DNA of 64,000 nucleotides. It comes from Lingula anatina (lineage: Eukaryota > Animalia > Brachiopoda). The notes under the pieces were generated by a model. It ran no database searches. It was given only the letters and a program-made list of their open reading frames with translations, and had not been told where the DNA came from. Shown one piece after another: positions 1,573 to 24,300 of the stretch (position 1 is the stretch's first letter; each line of letters begins with the position of its first letter). The translations under genes and the position numbers were made by a program. The stretch covers positions 19,964,001 through 20,028,000 of the forward strand of contig CM120641.1 in NCBI GenBank assembly GCA_051362555.1, given 5' to 3'.

Positions 1573-4500
1573 TTATTTTCTTTGCAGTTTCTTCCCTTTA
1601 AAGTTCTTCCCTTTTCCAGTTTTTCGAAACTTATTTCCATTTTTCCTTGGACCTCTTTGCTCTCTGTTAGATCTGTGTATTGACTTTTTGCTCTTAGTCT
1701 TATCCATACTTCCTTTACTTTTGTTACTTGAAAACTGTTTCTGAGGTTTTCTCTGCTGTCTACTGTTGGTTTCAATTTTCTTTCTTTTCTCTGGAATGTC
1801 CGTTTTCATCTTGCGTTTTCGCTTTTGTCCACCAACAGGAAAAAGATCTGAAAATACAAGATTTTATTGAAATAAAAAAAATTATTCTGACTCGCATCCT
1901 TATGTTGTCATTGAAAGTAAATTCCTCAAGCTATGGTAATAAATATAAAGCAAGATTCACAATATTAACCAATTTGCAAATTAAACGTTTGTTCATTGCA
2001 TGTTTTATTTATTCCATTCTTAAGCCTGATAAACTGGTGTAAACAAAACCTAATGTATACTGCAAATAAACTGGAAGAAGTCTTCCGGTAGTCAACAAAA
2101 CTCTGTGTCTTCCTGAAGAACTCGGTTTCACATTTAATGAAATAATTTAGATTAACGTTTTTAGGAAAAGAGGAAAATTAGAACCAATTAGATGTGTACT
2201 GTCCATCTATAACTGAAATGGTGAATTTTAATGACCTAAATTACTAAACATAAACTCAGAGAACATGTTTACCTGGATCTGGTGCTGAGCCAAGTTCTTG
2301 TTTATAGTATTCGACATCATCTTCATCACTCATCTCTTCAGCATCTGAAATTGCAAAATAATCTAAACAATATTATAAATCATACTTTACTAAATTATGT
2401 TTAACTAGACTCAAGTTGGTGTTTTTGTAGATTTCTCAAAAACACCCTTTAACCTTCCATAGACAAGTTGTCAGTTTAAAAAAAAAAGTTACTGTTATCA
2501 AGTCATAAAAATTTTTTTACGCTGCACTATGTTAACAATTCCTAATAAAGAAAGAAAAACCTTGTCATTACACAAACTATGAAAATAATGTGTAGCAGAA
2601 CACTCATTATTTACTCCTTAAACATCAATAAACCACAATAAATCTAGAATAAATGCTACTGAAAAAACAAAACAAAAGGATGTTATTATCATGATGCATT
2701 TACCTTTGCTTGTTTCATTGTTTTTCTCTTCTTCCTTGTTCTTGTCCATCCCAGCTAAGCACTTTTCTTTGTGTCCTTCTTTCTCTTTTTCTTTTTCCTT
2801 TATCCTCTCCATTTGTTGTTGCTTTCTTTTCAATTTAAGTTTTCTGTACAAATTTTAAGACTGCAGATTAATCTTTGAATCAATTGCAACCTTCTACAAG
2901 CCTTTACATCAATAAGTTAAAATATAAGTGAGAATCTTATTGTTTGACAAAAATTTTAGTGCTTGATAAAAATTTCTTAGGAAGCTTACATATTACACAG
3001 TTGTGAAAAATATACTATACAAAAGAAGTGGCCTAAAGCCTAAGGAAAAAGCTGGATGCCTATAAAAAACAAAGATGTCTGCAATTCACTACATATCCTT
3101 TTTTACAATTTAAATCACAAACCTCATCTCACTTACTTTTTATGTTCTCGGAACTCCTTTGCAGCTTGGATTTCCTTTTCTGTCTTTTTTACAAACCTAT
3201 GAAACAAAACATCACCACTGCACATGCCATCCTCAATCTTGACTAGTTGCAAAGTCATCCTTGGACCAATCTCAGTCAACCTACAATTGTGGAAAAAATT
3301 ATAACAAAAATATCATTACTAGCTTGATACCAGTACGTGAGCAGGGCTCAAAATAGCCCATTGCCTGTCATAACTGACTTTCTAAGAAGGCAAGACCCTT
3401 TTTAATGCCAGTTATGGCAAACATAACCCCCCACCCCTAACAACAAAGTCATGATCACTTTAAAAGTAAAATCCATAAAAAATCTTGTATTCTCTAACCT
3501 AAATGAACAATTTCCATGTAATAATAGCAAATGTTCCACCTCATTTTTTTTCACTGCCATCCTATCAAAAGTATATTTACCTGATTGCACTCTGAGCAGA
3601 CTTAATGTTTCCTCTACTGGACATGTGCTGTGGTAGAACCACTTCATTATGAGGACCATCCATCTCAGCTTCACTCTCAGAAAGATTGCCGCCACTAAAT
3701 CATCAAGTACAAAATTATTATGCTGGTTTTGGCGAAATGTGAGCATTTTATTCGCATTTAATCTCTTAAGTTGGACAAAATTAAATTTACAGATAATAAA
3801 AGAGTGTGAAATCTTAACTACTTGTGTCTAAAGTAATACTCGTCCTGGTCTCGCATACAAATTGTGATAGGAGGATTGCTGTTGCATCATGATTCATGCT
3901 TTAAAGAATAGCAAATAGTAGTCATAAACACATAAAGAACAGAGAGAAGAACAATTGTATTACTTCATTCAAAATTATAACAATAAATAAAAATATGTAA
4001 TATTCTAATTTTTTATTTTTGAAATAAACCCTCCAAGCAATTGAGTTCACTTGTTTTATTACAACTAATGTAATTTTTCATCATTCTAGCCCTAGCCTGT
4101 CATTTCAGGACAATCCCATTAGAAAAGGTACATTACCCAAGAACAAATTCACTGACATCATCAAATCTGCTCATGTTGGGAATTTTTGCTTTGATAAGTT
4201 TCTTCACTGCTCTGCCCATCCCCACAGGAACCACCTTGATGTTACTGAAATAACACAGCAATATGAAGTAAAATCCATCAGATATATTCTTTTGGATGGA
4301 AAGAAATATTTTTACAGATCAAAAACCTCATGTACAAACTGAATTAATGAAGAATCACACCACAGACTTTGCATTAAAATAAGCAAATCTGAAATAAAAA
4401 GAATATCAATAATCAACTAACCTTAGATAAAGCAAACATTTTATCTATTTGTTTCAAACTGCAGGTTTTATACAGAACTTATATACTTGAATGGCCTATC

Positions 4501-6510: not shown

Positions 6511-7956
6511 ATGGCTTCGGCAGGACCAGCAGTGGACATGGAGCTGAAAAAGGCATGTTTATCCCCTTGCTAAGCACATAACTTTGCATACATATGCAAT
6601 AAAATCTCTTATAATTGATAGTGTTCTGTAGTGTATTATGTAGATTGATCCAGATCCAATTGAATTGGCTATTTTATCCTGTTAACGCGTGCATGACCAA
6701 GACTGACATTTGTAATTTAATTTCTTATTTAAAATTATCATAAAGCCAAGTAAGATTTGCTGTGAAATTTCATAATGTACACTTCTTTCACTATATTAAA
6801 TCCATTTTAAATACCAAGTTACATTTCAACTGATTAACGATGATCAAGAAGTGTATTTACAGTATAACCATGATTAGATATATTTTTGTCGTTGATTGCT
6901 GCATGGTTTAGTTGTGTTAATATTTTAATGGTGTTATATTTATGTTTTTAAGGCTTTCCAAGATCTGCAGTCCAAAATGATACAGACCACTCAACAGCTG
7001 AAAATGTCCGACATGCAGGTTGAACAGCTCAAGCGACAAATTCAGCACTCTAAACTAGTAGAACAAGAATTAAAAACATTACCGGAAGGTGTAAACACTT
7101 ATGAAGGAGTTGGAAGAATGTAAGATATCTACCTATGTTAATGCATTTTTTTTTTGCATTCAAATTATCAGATAAATAAATAGATGAATAAATAGATAAG
7201 CAAAAACAAAGGCCCTGTACTAGTAGTAGTAGTAGTAGTAGTGCAATATCAAAGTATTCAATCATTAGGATTAAACAAACATTCTTGAATAAAATGAGGA
7301 TAAGGCTGTATTATGGAATCTAATTTGTCATAATTCTCAGATAACAAAGTTACTTTTTTGAGCACTGATTAAAGATAATTTAATAAATATTATATTTAAA
7401 CTATCTGGAGTTGTTGCCATAGTATCACTATTTGAATTCTTATTTCAGGTTTATCTGTCAACCAGTGGAAACTATTAAGTCAAATCTTGGAGAGAAAGTA
7501 AAAAATGCAGAAGCAAAAATTAAAACCATTGAGGTAATGGAAGGTTGAGAATTACGAGGACAGTTCTGTTGTTTTAATTGTGGTCTAGTAAAGATGTAAA
7601 ATTATCTGATACCCCTATCATAGGCATATATTTATCAATATAGATGTGTAAGTATAGCTTTTAACTTTGTGTTAAGAATGTTAATTATTTTTTAAGTTAA
7701 AAAGAAAATGGACCCCTATGCTTGTTAAAGGGGGATATCACTTTAATTTCTCTTTCATACTTTGGTAAATAGGTGTAGGTTATATGTTAGAATTTTCAGT
7801 AGGAGAAAGTAATGCAATATTTTCTTTGTAAATTTACAGATTTATCTTTTATTTTATTTTGGATTTCAGACTAACAAACAGTATCTGGAAAGAAGTATAA
7901 AAGAAAGTGAAGACAATCTAAGGGAATTAGTTTTGTCAAAAACTGGAAGACATTAA
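6511..7956 (+). CDS. PFDN1: Prefoldin subunit 1, 4 coding exons, 126 aa
   Basis: Exons 6511-6552, 6953-7119, 7449-7533, 7870-7956 (381 nt). Translation MASAGPAVDMELKKAFQDLQSKMIQTTQQLK...TYEGVGRMFI...NKQYLERSIKESEDNLRELV matches PFDN1. AATAAA at 8027-8032 and 8063-8068. Confidence 0.95.
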
Positions 7957-8654
7957 CCTTTGCATGTGTTAAAGGCACATTTCTGCTTTGCTGTTTTATA
8001 TAGACTATATTATGTATGCAACATAAAATAAAGGAATGTATAATCGTTAAGTGTGCATGTATAATAAATGTATGTTTGTAAAGTACTATTGTGTCACTAC
8101 CTATGTGTCACTACTTGGCTTTAAATAGATTTAGAATAGTGAAATAAAAGAATAAGAAAAAAGACAATAGCTAATAAGGATGATGATATGGTGGATATTT
8201 TCTTCCATTTGTTAAAAAGAATTGTTGGGTTACGTCTCTAATAAAAGTCATTCATTTATGATGTGTAACATGTTTGATGTATTAGGAATGCTGACATTAA
8301 AACTTTGTTTATAAGTGTTTATATTGTAACCATCTGGCTAATCACCTATTAGACTTGGATTAAATCATCTTCATTCTTGATCCTTTAATCTGAACACAAT
8401 TCAAGCATGTGAGGATCGCCTTTGTGCATGCCTGTGCAGTAAAATTCTTAGAGCTTACAGAGTACAGTAGTTGTTAGATCTTGACATTTAAAAAAAATGT
8501 CACTGAATAAAATCCCACGGTATGGCAGAAATAAGAGATTGATTGATTTCTGTTTTTGTGTTTTATTGGCAAGAGTTTTTACACCGTCTTCTCCCCTACC
8601 TGAAGGTCTTCTCTAGCACATTTACATTTCGGTTTGTCTTTTCCACGATGATGT

Positions 8655-8672
8655 GCAGCGCCATCTAGTGAG
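8655..8672. promoter_or_regulatory. CTCF-like binding motif
   Basis: GCAGCGCCATCTAGTGAG (reverse complement CTCACTAGATGGCGCTGC) closely fits the CTCF core CCACYAGRKGGCRS; lies between PFDN1 and the MTR kinase gene. Confidence 0.55.
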
Positions 8673-8702
8673 TAAAATATTGTAAACACTATCACGTGTT
8701 AG

Positions 8703-9045
8703 GCATGAGCTGGAGTTCAGGGTGGTGACCCAAAATTTGGGCCAGCCTAATCTATCTGTATTCCTTGGTCATTATTCAAGCGAGTGTGGCCTTAATGCAG
8801 GTCATGGGGGAGAAGTTGGATACAGAGAAAATTCAACATATTTTGCGCAAATGTGCTCCACTTCCTGGACTAGAGGTGATGTCACATTAGTTTGTAAACA
8901 GCTAGGGAAAGGGAAAGGAATAGTGTAGGGTGGTGGCGATGTAAATTGTGGATGGCCTCTCCTCGTGGTGTCTGTCTGTCACACTGTGTACATTTAACGG
9001 GCTTAAATATGTGTGGACTGAGCTTTGAATCGGGGAAATTTGCCC
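8703..9045 (+). pseudogene. Degenerate SRCR (scavenger receptor cysteine-rich) domain fragment
   Basis: ORF 8722-8928 contains MCSTSWTRGDVTLVCKQLG, fitting the SRCR motif VCDDxWxxxDAxVVCRQLG; it is followed by a stop, with only frameshifted hints of the later SRCR motif. Confidence 0.45.
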
Positions 9046-9138
9046 CCTGTCATCAACATACCCGCATGTTGTTTCTATTAATAGCAGTATTAGACAACTG
9101 AGTAGTTGATAAATACTCACTGTACTCAGCATGCAGTA

Positions 9139-9234
9139 CAGTGGCGGATTTAGAGGGGGGGTCTTGGGGGGGTGGTGTCGGCTCCGCATCCGCGAACCCT
9201 CCCCCCCTTTCAAATTATCCTGGATCCACCCCTG
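9139..9234. mobile_element. Short non-autonomous DNA-transposon-like element (CAGTGGCGGA...TCCACCCCTG termini)
   Basis: Imperfect terminal inverted repeats CAGTGGCGGATTTAG / CTGGATCCACCCCTG around G- and C-runs; no clear target-site duplication. Confidence 0.55.
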
Positions 9235-9382
9235 CAGCACATTCTAAAATGTGAAAAAGTTACAACATAGCGGACAAGGTTATTCATGCTTGTAGCTAGT
9301 AGAAGTGAGTGGGTACTCTTTAGAGTTTAGTTACCGTCAGTATCGCCTTCTTGATCGAGATTGAAAAAATAAGGGGGGGGGG

Positions 9383-10924
9383 ATGAATGATGAGCAATAT
9401 TTTTCTCCTCATGCTGGCATCCTCCACAAAATCTTGGATGTGTCATTGAGAAGGTGATACTTAACATGATTAAGTCAGACATGCGTTTTAAACTTCATTT
9501 GAACTGTTGGACATTTTTTCTTTGAATAAACATGAAAGTTCTGTTATATTACTATAGTGTTGAGGTATATGTTGTATTGTATATGTATTGTTCCCAGTGT
9601 CTAGATGGCAGTGAAGACATAGAGTTGGAAGAGATTGGCGATGGAAATATCAATGATGTTTTTCGAGTTACAAGTGTTAAGGAGCGCTCACAATCCCTTG
9701 TTGTCAAACATGGACCAGCATATATCAAGGTAAATAAATCTATTCTAGATTTTAGATTTAGATTTATTGATATAAAATTTAAGATGATAAATTATAATTA
9801 ATAAAAAGAATTTTAGAAATTTTGTTAAATACTTTTGAGGTTTGAAGTTGGGCATGTTTTGATGTTTTTATTGCTAACCAATTCAGTAAGTATGTACGTT
9901 AGTCATCCAGTCATATTCTATATAAAATAAACTTAAAATATATTGCTGGCCTTAGGGAGATGCAGTGTCGTCAGCTTGTTGTCATCTGCCAATTTATTTT
10001 TATAATTTATTTTATTTATTTATTTATTTTTGCCACAGTGCTTAGGTCCAGAGTTCCCATTATCCATAGTCAGGTTGAAGGTGGAGTATAATGCATTAGC
10101 CGCCTTTCAAAGAATTTGTCCTGGATACTCCCCCTGCCCATATTATTTTGATGTGGAGACCAATGCAGGTACAGTTGAAATTGGCCAGGAATTGTTTTAA
10201 AGGCATGTTGGCTGTAAAGCACTTGTAGTAAGGTAAAGTGTTATTGGTCGTTATAAATTGTTACATCCCTCAAAACATGGTGGATTTATACTCACAAAGT
10301 AGATGACATTATTGAGGTTATAAATAGGGAATTCATTACGGTTCCAGTTGGCAAAAAAGACATACATGTACTTGCTGAATTGCAGTAATGAGCAAAAATT
10401 GTTTTAACCTAAGAAACCAAGATGATTTTGCATGTACAACTTGAATATATGAATGTGAACAAATATTATTGTCAGATCTATAATAATCTGAAACATATAT
10501 ATAAACAAAGATGTAATATCTATTTCAGTTTTAATGGAAGATCTGAGAGATCATTCCATAATGAGAAAACAACTGATAAGTGGAAATATAAATATGGAGA
10601 CTGTGAAGAAGATAGCCTACTTTCTTGGTTGTGTGCACAGGGACACCCATGTCAGCAAACTAAGTGAAGCAGAATTTGAGAAACTTCAGCAAGATTTTCA
10701 GTAAGAACTCTTTCCCTTAATCTCCAACCATTTTTGGAGGGAGAAGATTGATAATTTTAATATATATATATATATTCTTTTTTTTTTGGGGGGGGGGGGG
10801 AGATGTTATTCCTCAAGTGCTGAAATAAAGCCAATATTGCTTTCTTTTTAATAACATAATTGCAAATAAGGATTGGATGCAATGATAACTTAATGTCAGA
10901 TATTGAACTAATTCCTCAATTTCC

Positions 10925-10998
<74 letters not shown>

Positions 10999-12987
10999 TT
11001 TAGCAAATATACATGTTTTCTTTATTTGACAGACATCTATAGATGCATGGTGTCTGAATTGTGCGATATAATAATGAATAACATCACCAGACAGACACTT
11101 AGCTTTGCAGATATTAAGGCATAATTATTCCTTTTTAGAAATGAAGACATGGTTTCTTTAACAAGACAGTACATTTTCACTCGCCCATTTGATAAAACTG
11201 ATCCTACCAACAGATGCTCAGAAGCAGTGCAAAAGAAATTGCACCTCGTATATGAAGACCCTGGACTATTAGACAGTGTGTGGAAAATGAGGAATTTGTT
11301 TCTAGAAAAGAAGGAATGCTTAGTCCACGGAGATTTACATACTGGCTCTGTACTAGTCAGTAATAATTCAGCCAAGGTACAAACCACTGCACGTGAATGT
11401 GTGTGTGTGTGTGTGTGTGTAAGTGTGTGCCATAAATTCCAGTGCCATAAAAATGTAAAAAGTTCAATATATTCTTTAATAGAAACCATGCATGGCTGGT
11501 GACACTCCCTTCCAAACAGTAAAAATATGTGAATGAAAGATGTGCACTATCTATCTCCACAATTGCTACATATGTATATTTGATATATTAACAAAGAGAA
11601 TGTGCCCTTTGGCTACTAACTACTGGCTACTTGTAAAATAAAAATCCAATTTATGAATAAGAAATTTTCCCCTGAATTTTAGAATTTTCTTGGAGGTATT
11701 ACTGAAACTTTACACCGAATCTCTATGAATTTGAACAGAACTATGTAAAATTATAATGATTATATATATATATATATAACACAATTAGTCTTGTTGATAT
11801 TTTTATTTCCTTAGGTGTTTGATAATGAGTTTGCCTATGTTGGGCCTGCAGCTTTTGACTTGGGACTCCTGATAGCCAATTACATCTTTTCCTATTATCG
11901 TCACATGTCAACACAGGAAAATCATGACACACATCGAAAGTTCAGTCAGAAATTGATTGAAGCTTGTTATCTGACAGGTGATGTACACAGAAATACCTAG
12001 AAAAGGAATTAGAATTTATGACATGATGCACATTTGTATTTAAATTAAGTAACAAATTGGTTTACATGTATGCTATCGATTTTTATCTTCAAAATATCAA
12101 CCAACTTAATATAAATTCTTTGTTTTACTTTTGTTTTTTTTTTCTAGTAGTTATTAAAATAATTGCCTTACATGTATGATATCGATTTTTATCTTCAAAA
12201 TATCAACCAGCTTAATATAAATTCTTTGTTTTACTTTTGTTTTTGTTTTCTAGTAGTTATTAAAATAATTGCCAAGTTTCATTGATGCTAAGTATCATTG
12301 AGAAATTCATTAACTATCAAGTATTCAACAGTTGAGTTCAGTATTGCTTATTGTTTATAACTTATTGACTTAGTACCATTTCATTAATATTTTACACGTG
12401 CACTAATATGATAACATAATCTGATTTTTCATCTTTGTAGTTAACACTTACCTGTCAGTCATGACCTGCACAGTAGGGCAGCGCCATGAGTACTTGAACA
12501 ACCTGCTCACAGAAACGGCTGGATTTGCTGGCTGTGAAATCATTCGCAGGTATATACCTCTTTGGTTGTATTTCTAGCATTAAACTGTAAGGATTTTTTT
12601 AACGGGAGGTTGTGAATTCTTCTTGATTAGACCATTCTGCAATGATTTACTAGACCATTATAGAATTGACAATTGCGGATTGATTTTATTGATACAGTAT
12701 TGAAATAGTTGAAACATAACATCATTTGGCAAAAACAATTAGCAAATATGGCTCATTTTTGTGTGTATCTGCAAATCAGTTGAGAGAGAAAAAAAGAGAG
12801 TAAATTCATTTTTATCTGTTTGAACTATTTCATTTCCAGAATAATTGGGACAGCTCATGTTGAGGATTTAGAAGGCATACCTTATGCTGAAGAAGATGCA
12901 CTGGAGGCTGGTGTACGTCTTCTTCTTGGACATGATAGGATCCATACCATTGATAGACTAATGGTCATAGCACTTATGCTAACATAA
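9383..12987 (+). CDS. mtnK: 5-methylthioribose kinase (MtnK/MTK1-like, APH/choline-kinase fold), spliced; 5' end uncertain
   Basis: Firm exons 9598-9729, 10039-10168, 10529-10700, 11139-11376, 11815-11977, 12441-12549, 12840-12987 (363 aa, GT-AG, in frame). Motifs EIGDGNINDVFRV, LVVKHGPAYIKCLGPEFPL, VLMEDL, LVHGDLHTGSV, KVFDNEFAYVGPAAFDLG, ETAGFAGCEIIRRIIGTAHVEDL follow Bacillus MtnK. A tentative exon 9383-9453 joined to an acceptor at 9557 gives ~400 aa. Confidence 0.93.
10927..10996. repeat. (AT)n microsatellite
   Basis: AT run in an MTR kinase intron. Confidence 0.95.
12062..12273. repeat. Tandem duplication, 2 x 106 bp, intronic
   Basis: 12062-12167 and 12168-12273 are near-identical (TTACATGTATG...AATAATTGCC). 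Confidence 0.9.
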
Positions 12988-17600: not shown

Positions 17601-20433
17601 ATTTAAGTAATGTGATTGTCATTGCCAGGTCAGACAAATGCACTTGTATTACCACCCACTAGGGTTAACTTTCTGCAGTTTACATGTTGCTTTGCTATTT
17701 TTTTCTTTTAATGATTATTATGCCAAGCAGGCAAACTTATGTATTCTTGTGTGCTGGACGCAAAAAATTGCTTTTGTTATTAAAAAATGACTCCTGTATT
17801 GAGCATAACAACGATGTGGACGTAATAGAATACCTATACCCCATGGCATTTAATTCCAGTCACCTGATCTTGTGCATTGTATATTCTGTAGGGAAGTTAT
17901 CATTCTATTGAATAGTATGTGTAGTGGTATTGAAAGAGGCTATAATGTGAATGGAAATTGATACAAACAAATAAGTAGAAGTCTTGTGTGATTGTATTAT
18001 CAATGTAGATATAATACAAATATTAAGATTTTGAGGCTTAGAAACCTGGCAAATTGTAAGGGTGTGACATGGTGTTTGGTGTAAAGAGGGGTTCTGTGCA
18101 GACTGCTTTTAAAATTTAACTGATAGTTTGTGGCTTGTTAATGCGTTTTCTTGCAAAATGACTAGGTTTTAAAAATTTCCAGATACCAGTTCAGAGAAAT
18201 TGTGCAAATTTAGCAAAATTATTGTGAAGGGTTTCTGACAGACAATTATGCAATATTAGGTTGGCCAATAGTCATTTTAATAATTGATTAACCCAGTTCT
18301 GTAATTAACAGTGGACAGCCTATGTGGTATTGCACAGTTTACAGTAGACAAACATGAGAACTAACCACCTGAAATATTGAATTAATTGATTTCTGCCCTG
18401 TGCATTAAAATGGGTAAAGAAATATTAAAACACAGTGAAGTCACACAGGTAGTTGTTTTGGACAAAGACAGAGAAATGTGTTTATAGAGAAATGATAGCC
18501 AAAATGGTGGATTTAAAATGTAAATCTTGATAACGTACAGGGAAATACATGTTATGTTATGGCCACTAGCTCTCCCCACCCTGATGACATAATTAAAGCG
18601 ATACTAACTCTTCGTATGACATCTATATTTCACAGTAAAAACATTGTGAACAACTCATAGAAATATAATATATTCTGTTTTACCACAAAAATGGCAGTTG
18701 TATTATTCTGATATCTGAGCTTGTCTTTAGACCACTTGACCTCCATTGATGGCTATACTCTGTAATAATCTCTTAAGAGATTATAACAAAAAAATCTAAC
18801 TTTTTAGAAAAAAAAAAAAAAAAAACAGGGACTAACTTTGAATGTAGAAATGGATTCATTAACCATTGGTAAGTATGGGAAAATTGTTGTTTACTCCAGA
18901 AAAATTGATTTTTTGGCTAAAACGAACAGTAATTATCCCTTTAAAGTAGACATAGTTTACAAATATTATACTAGGACTGTTACAGGTTAATATTCCTGGT
19001 ATGCTGCACAGAAGGGTGATTTTTTTCACAGTATATACACATACTTTCTCTGTTTTTCTTCTTTAAAATTCAATTGATTTGGAAGCCATTAGTATTGTTT
19101 CCCAATGCCCTTTCATACCCCTACCCTCCCCAACCACCACCTCAGTATTACTATTTGGCCCCCACTAAGGAAACACATAAAATATACTGTATAACTATAA
19201 CTATGTACTAAAATGATGCACTGCCCAGGGGTAACAGTGCATTATTTGTCATACATGCAAATGCAAATTGTACAGTTCCCATCCCAAACCTGATACCCTG
19301 ATATAACTATGCATAGGTATGTATGAGAAGGCACAAAGTGTGGCATTCCTTACCTTTTGGCTTCCCTTAATGTGCTGGCCAAAGAAAATGCTGCATTGTG
19401 AGGGTTTGCATCAGTCTAAATGATTGAATTTACTGCTTACTTGGTTCATATTAAAAACAAAGCAAAAGCCATCACATCTGTCACTCAGTTTTAGTATACA
19501 CTTGTACTGCATGTATTATACAAAAAATGGTCAGTTTTAAAAATCAACAACAATATCACTTCCATCAAGCAAAAGCATACTTATACATTACTTATGCAAT
19601 GAAGATGAATTACTGGTTACATATTTCAAACAACTATCAGTTTCTTCAATGACATTAAATCACAAGGAGAGGAGATAGATAAATTGAAGTTACCTTCTGA
19701 CAAACTCTTGCTGCTATGGCATCCCACACTCCTACCCTGCATGATTGATTTCTCCTTATTTCAGTAATAGTACTACAAGGAAGGAAAGTTTAAGTAATTA
19801 TTTTGGGTTTGAACTGGGGAGTATTACAAAACACTTTGAACTGCTGCGTGTAGAAACCTGTCACATGCTAGGCGTTGTCACAAAAAGCGAGCTGTACGGT
19901 ACCAGCTGCTCACAGATGTGAACTCTGTGTTATGATTACTGGTTTAAAGAATACCTTAAATAATGTAGTTCTCTGTTTTTAAAGATAATATTTTTTTATC
20001 TTTTTTTTCTCATTTGTAAATGATTCAAAGAGAGAATTAAAGATGGCTTTGGATACAATGACAAGCAATGCCAGTTAAAAATTTTAAAGGCTTTGTAGAG
20101 AAAAGACTAACATGATTTTTTACCAACTCTCAATTAAACGCATGTTGGGTAAGATTATGTAATAAATAATCGGTTTTAACAAAAACAATCTAAAATAATT
20201 TAAAACTCTTGAAATGCTGTATGTAGCACTGCTAGAAATGCAAGATGCTAATTTGTTCAACAAATTTTCAAGCTGTTGTCAACCATGGATGTCAACTTAA
20301 ACAGCTGGTGCCTCTTCTTTCGACCAATTTTGTTCATGGAAAGAATTACTTTAGTCTGTATCAAGTGCCACGGTGATAGTGCATTCTTCAAATACCTCAG
20401 CAAAAGATTTTCAAAAATATTGGTTGATACAAT

Positions 20434-21340
20434 ATGGCTTGCAAGCCAATTATGGAAGAGTTGCCTCTGCTCTTGGAAAAAGGAGACAGTATGTCTTTTG
20501 ATGTTGCTGCAGGAGGTAAAAGTGAAGGCCAGACAGATGTACAAGTTAGCACTCAGGAAAATGTGATAGAACCTGGTGACACATTGTCTGTAAGACGCAA
20601 CCGTAGACCAAAACTTTCCACATTTTTCTCCAAAAGGACTGCATCCTTTGCTGACAATGCTTCTCCTACTACTGGGAGAATGTCTTTAGGTAAAACGCTA
20701 GGGAGAAAAATAATGAAATTTCTGAGAAGAACCCATAGTGAAGAGCAAGTTATATCAGAAGAAAATCTGACTTTGATGGAATCCTCTCCTTCTCCAAAAA
20801 TGGGCTGTAGTAGCAGTAGTAAGAAAGGCAGTATGGATATCACTGTCCCAGACAAAGTGCAAGCTCTTCAAAAAGTTGATCAGCCACAAAAGCCCCCACG
20901 TCCACCTGCATTGCCAGCTTCTTACAGGATAAACCCTCAGGTGCCCCCAGAACCAACATATCAAGAAATTGGCTCTGTCTGCATTGACAACACAACGCAA
21001 GATGTTTCAACACAGTGTTTGATCTTGAACACTTCTGATGCTGGAGATTCTGCTGCCAAATTCATTGGCATGGCAACCCCAAAACCAATCCAAAGACGCA
21101 CAAGTAATGTGTATGACACTGTGACAATTCGGAGCTTGCATGAGGGAGGTCCAGTTGTAGATGAAAAGCCTAAAATGGTGGTGAAACCACAACCAAAGCT
21201 TACAGCAGAAAAAAACATGGAGCCCAAACAACCTGAAGTAGCTTCCCTGGATGAAAGAACACCTGCTACAGATGAAACAGAAGGAGGCTATGATGAGAAT
21301 GACTACATAAGTGAACAGCATGAATTGGAAACTCTCTTGG
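20434..21340 (+). CDS. Large coding exon (302 codons, Ser/Pro/acidic, probably disordered); candidate N-terminal extension of the SH2D4-like protein
   Basis: Longest ORF in the window (20434-21402), with an in-frame stop just upstream of the ATG; donor G/GTATGG at 21341 is phase 1 and matches the phase-1 acceptor at 25703. Confidence 0.7.
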
Positions 21341-24300
21341 GTATGGAATTTTTCAACATTTTTTCAGTGAAAAAATTCGGTCCATGTGAAATTGATGCTT
21401 AGAGTAGCCAACCAAAAACACAAAATTCAGAAAAAATAATCTCGTAAATGTACATCAAATATAAGTCGGTGAGAGTTTGGTGTGTTAGGATATATATTGT
21501 TCCAAGTAGCCAAGAATTTAAGCAAGGGGACAGTTATTTTGTCTCTTAAATTGCTAACAGGTATCCTGAGTTAAAGGGTAAAAATATCCTCCCCTCTGTA
21601 GGCTCTCCTCTACCCAGAATATTTGCTGTCAGTATATTTGAAGCGTCCAATCGTCTCTGAAACTCGAGGTAAAGAAAAACAATACATGTTTGAAAATGTC
21701 CCAGAGTATATATTTTCATGTCTGAATATCTGACACAGCTACCTACCTTTCCCAATGCAGACTTAAATAATAATAATAAAACCCTCCAAATAAAAGTATC
21801 CAATATTGATAATTTCTATGACATTTTAATTGTTTGGCCAGACATTTAGAACTAAATGATTTATTTGGAAATGGTATAAAACATCAAATCAAAGTGCAGG
21901 GATGGGTCAAGCAATGGACCTGGAGTAAGAGAAAATCACATTTTGTACTAAGGAAAATTAAATTTGGCACAGATATCCCAAATAAGATGCCTTAAATGTC
22001 ATAACCCTGTAGCACATAAAAACTAGGTTTGAGAGGATGGATTAGTTTAAAGAAGACTTATGCTTTGGTTTATGGTTTGGACTTGATTACAACATCAAGT
22101 ATTTTTAGACCATGGAGTAAGATTTTTTAGGCTACCATATTGGATTTGGTGACCATGTTGAGATTTTCAGATATATCACAATAACGTTGATAAAAAAGCA
22201 CTATTTTGAATATGTCAAATTTCACGCTTGCCCAGTGCATTATTCCCCTCTCCCATTATGGGCAAAAATTGCTGATTAAATAAAATTTGTGTTTCTTGCA
22301 AACTTCTTAGCATGAATTGCTTTTAATTTCATCTTTTTCAAAATGATATTAAATTGACATACATATCTAACAATAGGAAGAATGCTAGCCTCTTGAGGTT
22401 ATAGTTATCTTTTCCTAAATGAAAAGGATCTCATCTGTTTAACAATAAGAGGAATGCAAGCCCTCTGAAGACCTTCAGTACAGACATGCAATGTAGCCTG
22501 AAAATTAGTCAAGGCACAGGTAATGTAGTTTACCTGAACCAGTGGTATACCTGTGGGGAGCAATGAAGGACTATAAATTTTACGATCTCATGCACGTGTC
22601 ATGGAGCACCTTCAGGTGGATGTACAGTTGAAGCTGTATGTTAGCAAATGGAATTTATGTAGAGATGGTGTTTATGTTTGGAGATAAAAAGAATGTGTTA
22701 ATTGTAACATTTGGTAATAATAATAATAATAACAATATACATTCTTGCAACTAAAAGTTGGATTTAAAATGCACTATAAAAGAGTATTAAAAGTAACTAA
22801 AACATGTTATGGCACTAGAAATATAAAACACGAATTCACTAATTTAAATATTACATTAATCTGCTTCTTAAAAATAGTTCAGTAACATAAAAAAAGAATT
22901 CATTTATAATGTATGGTGGTTGAATCTTGAAAAATTCTAATACATCATTATGTTAGACAAGGAAAACCTTAGTTCAAATGAAATTGGATTTTTTTTTACT
23001 TTTGCAAGTTGATTTATAGTCTTACCTAACACTTGGAAGGAAAGGGTAGGGTAAAATTTATCTGTTGACTTGCTGTTAAAGATATTTAATCGTGGGAGCA
23101 TTTATCTGTTAATGCAAAAAATAGCAAAGTTTAAATGAATAAGGAAAAAAGGCTGCAATAAGTCTGATATTTTTAAACTTTTATAGTGCTCTGAGAAACG
23201 CCTTCCTTCACTATGGACCATTTCCAGTTAGCATTCAAAGCTTGCGATAATCACCACAGGCCGTGACTGATAATAATGTATGATATAGTTGTACTGTTTA
23301 TGGGTGGTATGGATAATGGCACCGACTGATAATGCACAGAACACATAAAATAATGGACTGCACACTGTTGAAACATTAAAGTTCTTCTGCCACTAGGGAC
23401 CCATTGTCATATAGTCCATCACATTATGATATGCCAGGCTGTATTCAAGTGATTTACTTTGTTGTAAAAACCAATAAGCATGTGGAATTTTTCTGAGACT
23501 AATTTGATTTGACATTTAAAAATGAATTTGTTTTGCCAGATTTGAAAAAAATGAAAAGGAGTAAAAAAAGTTGACAACCAGCTTATTTGATGTTTTGCTT
23601 GTGTATTGTACTTCTGTAGACATTATATATTCCTTAAACAACTTTCGTGAGTTCTCCTTTTTGGGAGTCATGATTTGTTGAATCAGTGTTACGGTATCAT
23701 ACTGTGCAAGTTGCTTGGGCAAGATGTTTCAAAGCAGATAAAAATCATGACGTTGTGATACTGTCATGAGAGATTTATGCCCTCCCCTCCTTTTTACCTT
23801 CAAGGTTTACGAATCCATATTGAAGTTGTAAAGGTGTTCATGATATTTCTAATTGCCATGCCAAGAAGAACTAAGAATAATGGTTGGATATTGTCTGTAA
23901 TTACATCAAAATTTTCAACAGAAATTATATGTTTCGTATTCTTAAATTATTTTTTAACCACCACTCATAAATATTTTAATGAATTAATTAAAGGACAATA
24001 AAGAAATTATAATAACATAGCAAATGTGCCCTGTTCATAAACACCCCTCCCCAAGTCTGCTACAGCATTTCTTGAACATTACACAGTAGCCTACATGTAT
24101 CTCGAGAGACCAACTAGGATAATTAGTTGGCATGCGCCATGTAATTATCCATTCTGTTGTCCCATAGATCAGTGAATGTTGCCCATTGTTCTAGCTTTAT
24201 GAGCAGAACATTTTAGAAGCGGATAAGCCTCAGACTGGTACTCATTGATAAATGAAGAAAGATGCCCTATTATGGCTGGGTCACAAATTATCTGACCCAT

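What the first reader, a model, noticed from the sequence alone, without database searches (positions are those of the whole stretch)
9383..12987. Intact, intron-containing methylthioribose kinase in an animal genome: a possible nucleosidase/kinase methionine-salvage route
Seen: at least seven GT-AG exons encode a complete MtnK with the glycine loop (GDGNIN), HGDLHTGS, the DxE metal site (DNE here, DPE in Bacillus) and the substrate-binding RR motif (CEIIRRIIG), embedded among metazoan genes, so contamination is unlikely. Established: vertebrates and yeast salvage MTA with MTAP, whereas MTA nucleosidase plus MTR kinase is the bacterial/plant route. Inference: this animal either has a hidden two-step route or scavenges methylthioribose from diet, microbes or symbionts; the gene is an ancestral retention or an old, intronised horizontal transfer. 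Similar automated annotations may already exist in other marine invertebrates, so novelty probably lies in function rather than presence.
Basis: partly seen in the sequence, partly recalled or inferred. Interest (0 to 1): 0.8.

Follow-up and report, generated by a model that had tools for sequence, protein, structure and literature searches.

The report
Ancient animal methylthioribose-kinase with reshaped pocket
This is a real, spliced and expressed brachiopod gene of the methylthioribose-kinase family, part of an old, already auto-annotated but apparently unstudied lineage running from a sponge to molluscs, sea urchins and amphioxus, which likely phosphorylates free methylthioribose or a similar waste sugar so that it can be recycled.

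Summary
The gene is real, but has eight exons and starts at 8795, not 9383. The 390-residue protein matches RefSeq Lingula anatina models, passes the TIGR01767 cut-off, folds like MTR kinase (TM 0.89), and keeps the ATP, Mg, catalytic and ribose-binding residues described for the solved enzymes.

It is not peculiar to this animal. Thirty animal species appear in one search, mostly already named 'methylthioribose kinase-like'; a sponge copy exists too. The animal copies form one clade that roughly tracks animal phylogeny, so inheritance is old and recent transfer is unlikely.

What seems undescribed: this clade groups with Poribacteria/Latescibacteria and some microbial-eukaryote proteins, apart from the Bacillus and amoeba/MtnAK types. 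All three residues capping the methylthio group differ (W to Y/F, L to Y/F, L to A/T). Five Poribacteria genomes carry the kinase beside MTAP, with no MtnN over cut-off. Best reading: a scavenging or repair kinase for free methylthioribose or 5-deoxyribose, not half of a hidden nucleosidase route. Activity, substrate, and Lingula's MTAP/MtnN content are untested.

The parts
8795..8875 (+). Coding exon 1 (residues 1-27); transcribed 5' end about 8720
   Evidence: RNA depth over 8745-8910 and joint to 9598 in 4 of 4 runs; matches the RefSeq P0001 start
9598..9729 (+). Exon 2 (28-71): G-loop GDGNIN and nucleotide lysine K64
   Evidence: RNA depth and both junctions; TIGR01767 E 4.8e-9
10039..10168 (+). 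Exon 3 (72-115): W-loop with F77 in place of Trp, and R83
   Evidence: Its first bases are read as loose ends behind exon 2 in 3 of 4 runs
10529..10700 (+). Exon 4 (115-172): hinge and start of C-lobe
   Evidence: GT..AG ends and open frame; TIGR01767 E 0.0024; no reads laid
11139..11376 (+). Exon 5 (172-251): pocket Y183, catalytic HGDLHTGS (D237, S242)
   Evidence: TIGR01767 E 2.9e-16; 99% identical to P0001; no reads laid
11815..11977 (+). Exon 6 (252-306): Mg-binding DNEF (D254, E256, F257)
   Evidence: no reads laid
12441..12549 (+). Exon 7 (306-342): E338, R341; intron 7 splits the R342 codon
   Evidence: no reads laid
12840..12987 (+). Exon 8 (342-390 plus stop): pocket T346, C-terminal helices
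   Evidence: no reads laid
9383..9453 (+).
   Evidence: Zero RNA depth in 4 of 4 runs over 9243-9574

Best explanation
The gene encodes an expressed, intact MtnK-family kinase shared across invertebrate animals, which is predicted to use Mg-ATP to phosphorylate O1 of free 5-methylthioribose and/or 5-deoxyribose, and likely acts as a scavenging or repair entry to methionine salvage beside MTAP rather than as half of a nucleosidase/kinase route. Shown: gene structure, expression, family membership, fold, conserved active-site residues, one animal clade. Inferred from the solved enzymes: D254/E256 hold Mg-ATP, D237 activates the ribose O1, R341 grips O2/O3, F257 packs on the sugar. Inferred: inheritance from an early animal ancestor; the 5-substituent sits in a rebuilt pocket (F77, Y183, T346), where a larger residue at 183 offsets smaller ones at 77 and 346; the free sugar comes from ingested or resident bacteria that excrete MTR, or from dephosphorylated MTR-1-P; the product enters the isomerase/dehydratase/dioxygenase steps.
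For: TIGR01767 294.4 bits against a cut-off of 275. Only PDB sequence hits are B. subtilis and Arabidopsis MTR kinase. AlphaFold model pLDDT 95.8, TM 0.89 to 2PYW against 0.69 for PsiK and about 0.5 for choline kinases. The residues named in PMC2194712 and PMC4702295 are kept: N44, N46, K64, R83, D237, S242, D254, E256, F257, E338, R341, R342. Enzymes of this family take both sugars: DrdK has kcat/Km 8.7e4 and 8.5e4 (PMC6079011). In 5 of 5 Poribacteria genomes the kinase co-occurs with MTAP and MtnA over cut-off, 0 of 5 have MtnN over cut-off, and in 2 of 5 MTAP is the only PNP_UDP_1 match. Bacteria lacking MtnK excrete MTR (PMC6302742), and MTR kinase lets organisms take up external MTA/MTR (PMC2194712). 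Oysters have the downstream dehydratase and dioxygenase (passages). asd lies directly upstream of the kinase in 56 of 58 related bacterial loci, a weak link to aspartate-family metabolism.
Against: No activity measured. All three residues that cap the methylthio group differ from both solved enzymes, and no clade member I found has been assayed. MTAP, MRI1 and MtnN were not searched in Lingula, because no genome is held; that animals generally have MTAP is recalled. 3 of 5 Poribacteria have MtnN-like hits at 67-70 bits against a cut-off of 73.8, and 5 of 5 have IU-type nucleoside hydrolases that might release MTR; genome completeness is not given. Bacterial gene content is only an analogy for the animal. 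No SAM riboswitch was found in 10 loci. 15 of 56 animal-clade rows have lost or lack a key residue, so the family does drift in function.
Confidence: 0.5

Rival explanations
1. Hidden two-step route: an animal MTA nucleosidase makes MTR inside the cell and this kinase phosphorylates it, as in plants, Bacillus and Tetrahymena.
For: This is the pairing in all characterised cases (PMC2194712, PMC2759508). Exon depth is roughly a quarter to a half of the neighbouring prefoldin gene in three studies, which suits a housekeeping role. Near-cut-off MtnN-like hits in 3 of 5 and IU hydrolases in 5 of 5 Poribacteria.
Against: No nucleosidase domain among the 13 and 105 window ORFs scanned (a filtered subset). 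The animal kinase is not of the amoeba/MtnAK-fusion lineage (AU p 1.5e-6). Its bacterial relatives have MTAP.
Confidence: 0.2
2. Shifted substrate: same chemistry, but the aromatic-lined pocket prefers a different 5-substituted ribose, such as a bulkier or cationic S- or As-methylated ribose from marine food, and the product does not feed methionine salvage.
For: Pocket signature Y/F-Y/F-small in 40 of 56 animal, 11 of 11 Poribacteria/Latescibacteria-group and 20 of 24 sister rows, against 6 of 165 others; Trp in 0 of 91 against 87 of 165. The named members are almost all aquatic, mostly marine. The fungal relative PsiK shows the fold can be repurposed. Aromatic cages for onium groups and marine arsenosugars are recalled, from no call.
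Against: PMC2194712 calls the Trp semi-conserved and the three caps not strictly conserved, and says bulky analogues are accepted anyway. The changes look compensatory. PMC2763108 gave no passage on arsenic or xylosyl analogues. Freshwater molluscs keep the gene.
Confidence: 0.25
3. Recent bacterial transfer into this lineage, or contamination.
For: The highest-scoring non-animal rows belong to the group whose named members are Poribacteria/Latescibacteria.
Against: Seven introns; spliced reads; neighbours are animal housekeeping genes; 50-55% identity to molluscs against about 40% to bacteria; one animal clade with a sponge member; scallop and chiton isoforms break where Lingula introns 1, 2 and 7 lie.
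Confidence: 0.02

Closest known systems
5-methylthioribose kinase MtnK/MTK1 (EC 2.7.1.100; TIGR01767; B. subtilis 2OLC/2PUN, Arabidopsis 2PYW)
   Same: Passes the family cut-off; same fold (TM 0.84-0.89); G-loop, HGD, DxEF, catalytic-loop Ser and RR motifs all kept.
   Different: Only 27-29% identity in the structural alignments. Methylthio caps W74/L180/L345 (W76/V184/V370) are F77/Y183/T346. Separate clade from Bacillus-type and amoeba/MtnAK-type enzymes. Partner nucleosidase not shown.
5-deoxyribose kinase DrdK of the DHAP shunt (PMC6079011)
   Same: Same family; acts equally on MTR and 5-deoxyribose, so sequence cannot separate the two. NCBI names some echinoderm copies '5-deoxyribose kinase-like'.
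   Different: DrdK works in a kinase-isomerase-aldolase operon. No such cluster was seen in the window or in the Poribacteria loci scanned, and those genomes have only weak Aldolase_II matches of 36-40 bits. The DrdK sequence itself was not compared.
MtnAK fusion of ciliates, prasinophytes and diatoms (PMC2759508)
   Same: A eukaryotic MtnK outside plants.
   Different: Fused to the isomerase. IF-2B+APH fusion rows fall with Arcella in another clade.
RefSeq/UniProt 'methylthioribose kinase-like' proteins of molluscs, annelids, echinoderms, amphioxus and Sycon
   Same: Direct orthologues; this locus is already a Lingula anatina model (LOC106180084 or LOC106169969).
   Different: Automated names only; no study found in 10 searches.

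Membership tests
MtnK (TIGR01767) | Whole-protein score over the curated cut-off | tested here: met
   294.4 against 275 bits for P0001, which differs from the window's product at 3 residues
MtnK (TIGR01767) | G-loop GxGNxN and nucleotide lysine | tested here: met
   GDGNIN 41-46, K64 (definition PMC2194712)
MtnK (TIGR01767) | HGD catalytic loop with the family-specific Ser | tested here: met
   D237, S242
MtnK (TIGR01767) | DxE Mg site followed by Phe | tested here: met
   D254-N-E256-F257; the preceding Ile is Phe here
MtnK (TIGR01767) | RR motif with Glu/Lys three residues upstream | tested here: met
   E338, R341, R342
MtnK (TIGR01767) | W-loop insert with its anchoring Arg | tested here: met
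   Insert present, R83 kept
MtnK (characterised enzymes) | Methylthio cap Trp/Leu(Val)/Leu(Val); described as semi-conserved, not defining | tested here: not met
   F77/Y183/T346; clade-wide change. Only 87 of 165 other rows have Trp.
MtnK (TIGR01767) | MTR-kinase fold | tested here: met
   Model TM 0.89 to 2PYW, E 8e-27
MTR kinase EC 2.7.1.100 | ATP-dependent MTR-1-P formation | not testable with these tools
   Needs an assay
MTR kinase EC 2.7.1.100 | Homodimer through helix 8 | not tested
Nucleosidase/kinase salvage route | MTA nucleosidase in the same genome, MTAP dispensable | not testable with these tools
   No genome held; indirect evidence from Poribacteria leans against
DHAP shunt (DrdK-DrdI-DrdA) | Kinase clustered with isomerase and class II aldolase | tested here: not met
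   Not among the window ORFs scanned nor in the Poribacteria loci scanned; clustering is not expected in animals

The most novel reading that the evidence does not exclude
Early animals possessed an MtnK of a lineage shared with sponge-associated Poribacteria, distinct from the plant/amoeba enzyme and with an aromatic-lined pocket. Marine invertebrates still use it to harvest bacterial SAM-waste sugars (methylthioribose, 5-deoxyribose or a methylated sulfur/arsenic analogue) as a microbe-to-host sulfur or carbon route that vertebrates lost.
Probability: 0.25. Interest if true: 0.72.

Novelty: new variant of a known kind. Interest (0 to 1): 0.43.

Why it matters
The papers read describe MTR kinase as an enzyme of bacteria, plants and some protists that mammals lack, and propose it as an antibiotic and herbicide target on that basis. 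An old animal lineage of the enzyme would mean that MTAP-only salvage is a reduced state in vertebrates, and that many aquatic invertebrates can recycle a sugar bacteria excrete. It would also mean MTR-analogue agrochemicals might affect molluscs and echinoderms. One recombinant assay would settle the substrate. Presence alone is already in automated annotation.

Tried and rejected
No genome is held, so MTAP, MRI1 and MtnN could not be searched in this animal. No RNA holder was indexed for the stretch; same-species raw runs were laid instead, and only exons 1-2 and the exon 2-3 junction are covered.

The careful C20 tree of 50 rows did not finish in three runs; I use its quick version and a careful LG+G4 tree of 30 rows. 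The profile search meant to name early-branching eukaryote relatives returned mostly 377-379-aa proteins, the named ones Poribacteria, and left P0175 without a taxon; the Atlas gave only family names. The first fold job modelled P0175 by mistake and is not used.

Read-through from prefoldin into the kinase: rejected, depth is 0 over 8579-8661 in 4 of 4 runs. RefSeq isoform X3 (alternative acceptor in exon 2) was not among the listed joints. No SAM riboswitch at 10 Poribacteria loci.

Ten literature searches listed no paper on an animal MTR kinase; the library lacks most subscription papers, including Albers 2009 and Ku 2007 JBC, and supplements were not opened. Absence from vertebrates, insects, nematodes and cnidarians is not shown: none is named among listed hits, but the lists were cut at 120 and 150 rows.

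Full report
Observation. The six-frame translation shows MtnK-like blocks on the + strand. With corrected boundaries, each of seven exons hits TIGR01767 in profile order. RNA reads from four runs of three studies were laid on 7500-9980. In the three runs with one-sided mates the direction fits a + strand RNA. The eight-exon model (8795-12987) gives 390 residues, no internal stop and seven GT..AG introns. It differs at 2 and 3 residues from RefSeq Lingula anatina proteins P0127 and P0001. Introns 3-7 have no read support here. Upstream neighbours are prefoldin and a Brix-domain gene; SH2 and protein-kinase exons lie further down.

Family. P0001 scores 294.4 bits on TIGR01767 against a cut-off of 275. 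Its only PDB sequence hits are the B. subtilis and Arabidopsis MTR kinases. An AlphaFold model from 120 sequences (pLDDT 95.8) matches 2PYW at TM 0.89, PsiK at 0.69 and choline kinases near 0.5. I read parts 1-3 of 5 of PMC2194712 and passages of PMC4702295 and mapped the residues they name through the alignments. The G-loop asparagines, K64, R83, D237, S242, D254, E256, F257, E338, R341 and R342 are all kept. The three caps of the methylthio group are not: W76/V184/V370 of Arabidopsis (W74/L180/L345 of Bacillus) are F77, Y183 and T346.

Distribution. Of the 120 best hits listed (278 found), 31 are named animal proteins from 30 species: bivalves, gastropods, a chiton, Capitella, echinoderms and Branchiostoma. 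22 of the 31 carry an NCBI name 'methylthioribose kinase(-like)'. Look-up of 10 unnamed rows in the animal clade added Sycon ciliatum, Owenia, starfish, Amphiura and Batillaria (7 of 10 named as animals); P0175 (EukProt), P0168 and P0179 have no taxon. Presence in invertebrates is therefore already in the databases. No vertebrate, insect, nematode or cnidarian is named, but the lists are truncated.

Phylogeny. From 303 proteins I dropped 14 for short coverage and 33 near-duplicates, leaving 256 for FastTree. All 32 named animal rows fall in a 56-row clade (support 96), inside a 91-row clade (100) that also holds 11 rows whose named members are Poribacteria and Latescibacteria (54 of 58 loci are titled Poribacteria) and 24 rows for which I have only one organism name, a pelagophyte, and one MMETSP source. 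The quick C20 tree of 50 rows gives P0175, then Sycon, then bilaterians, with echinoderms (86), lophotrochozoans (95) and molluscs (90) each grouped. The careful LG+G4 tree of 30 rows gives the larger clade 100/99, bilaterians 98/96 and animals plus P0175 only 88/77. It places Branchiostoma beside Lingula and Owenia (84/83), against the species tree. AU tests reject joining the animal rows to the Arcella/MtnAK-fusion clade (p 1.5e-6) and reject one clade of all presumed eukaryote rows (p 3.5e-5). Caveats: groups were chosen after seeing trees, the model was LG+G4, no named plant row was available, and the root is a midpoint. Isoform models of two scallops lack the segment equal to Lingula exon 2, and a chiton isoform lacks it and reads on after the RR motif where intron 7 lies, which hints at shared intron positions. 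Reading: vertical inheritance since early animals; the deeper origin (bacteria to eukaryote, the reverse, or an old paralogue) is unresolved.

Pocket signature. Y/F at 77, Y/F at 183 and a small residue at 346 occur together in 40 of 56 animal-clade rows, 11 of 11 Poribacteria-group rows and 20 of 24 sister rows, against 6 of 165 others. Trp is at 77 in 0 of 91 against 87 of 165. PMC2194712 calls these caps not strictly conserved, so this does not exclude MTR. 41 of 56 animal-clade rows keep all of D237, D254, E256, F257, R341 and R342; the other 15 include diverged paralogues and partial sequences.

Pathway context. No Lingula genome was available. As a proxy I searched five Poribacteria genomes. 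MtnK, MTAP and MtnA pass cut-off in 5 of 5 and MtnN in 0 of 5; 3 of 5 have MtnN-like hits just under cut-off, and in the other 2 MTAP is the only PNP_UDP_1 match. All five have IU-type nucleoside hydrolases and only weak class II aldolase matches. asd lies just upstream in 56 of 58 loci, all close kin; no riboswitch was found. So the nearest bacterial relatives keep this kinase beside MTAP, which suits scavenging, though a hydrolase source of MTR is not excluded. Passages read: DrdK acts equally on MTR and 5-deoxyribose (PMC6079011); E. coli strains without MtnK excrete MTR (PMC6302742); Tetrahymena pairs MtnN with MtnAK and lacks MTAP (PMC2759508); oysters have the dehydratase and dioxygenase (PMC13182035, PMC5632645); PMC2763108 added nothing on analogues.

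Mechanism and verdict. Most likely (0.5) the enzyme phosphorylates free MTR or 5-deoxyribose at O1 as a scavenging or repair entry beside MTAP. A shifted 5-substituent preference gets 0.25, a hidden nucleosidase route 0.2, and recent transfer or contamination 0.02. It is a member of the MtnK sequence family; that it is an MTR kinase in function is untested. Ten searches listed no paper on animal MTR kinases, within a library that lacks most subscription journals. An earlier scan note on an octopus copy with a replaced catalytic aspartate agrees on distribution and was not tested here. Novelty: a new variant of a known kind; interest 0.43.

Noticed in passing
proteins P0033, P0047, P0048 (Haliotis), P0166, P0234, P0246 (starfish), P0173, P0187: Diverged animal paralogues: abalone copies have NxG in place of the DxE metal site, and echinoderm and gastropod copies have altered RR or Phe sites, which suggests repeated duplication and drift.
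   Followed up: partly
L001-L058, upstream of position 4001: Aspartate-semialdehyde dehydrogenase directly precedes mtnK in 56 of 58 Poribacteria-type loci, with a DnaJ-like gene in all 58. PDB entry 9A5I models B. subtilis MtnK bound to DHOM, another aspartate-pathway link.
   Followed up: partly
proteins P0300, P0271, P0226; P0287, P0212; P0260: MtnK fused to DUF2064, to a PNP_UDP_1 domain, and to a HAD hydrolase, in unnamed records.
   Followed up: no
window 6511-8500 (+) and 8720: The prefoldin gene's transcript ends only about 200 bases before kinase exon 1, with no bridging reads. Its first intron (6553-6952) appears to begin with GC (no reads laid there).
   Followed up: partly
window 9140-9236: A short element in intron 1 draws RNA reads with loose ends on both sides, likely a dispersed repeat.
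   Followed up: no
window 12055-12266: Tandem duplication of 106 nt (95% identical) in intron 6.
   Followed up: yes
window 20428-21402 (+): A 324-residue open frame with no Pfam match.
   Followed up: no
run X7 on window 7500-9980: This run differs from the window at many more sites than the other three (67 of 210 reads at 90-95% identity), which may be a divergent population under the same species label.
   Followed up: no
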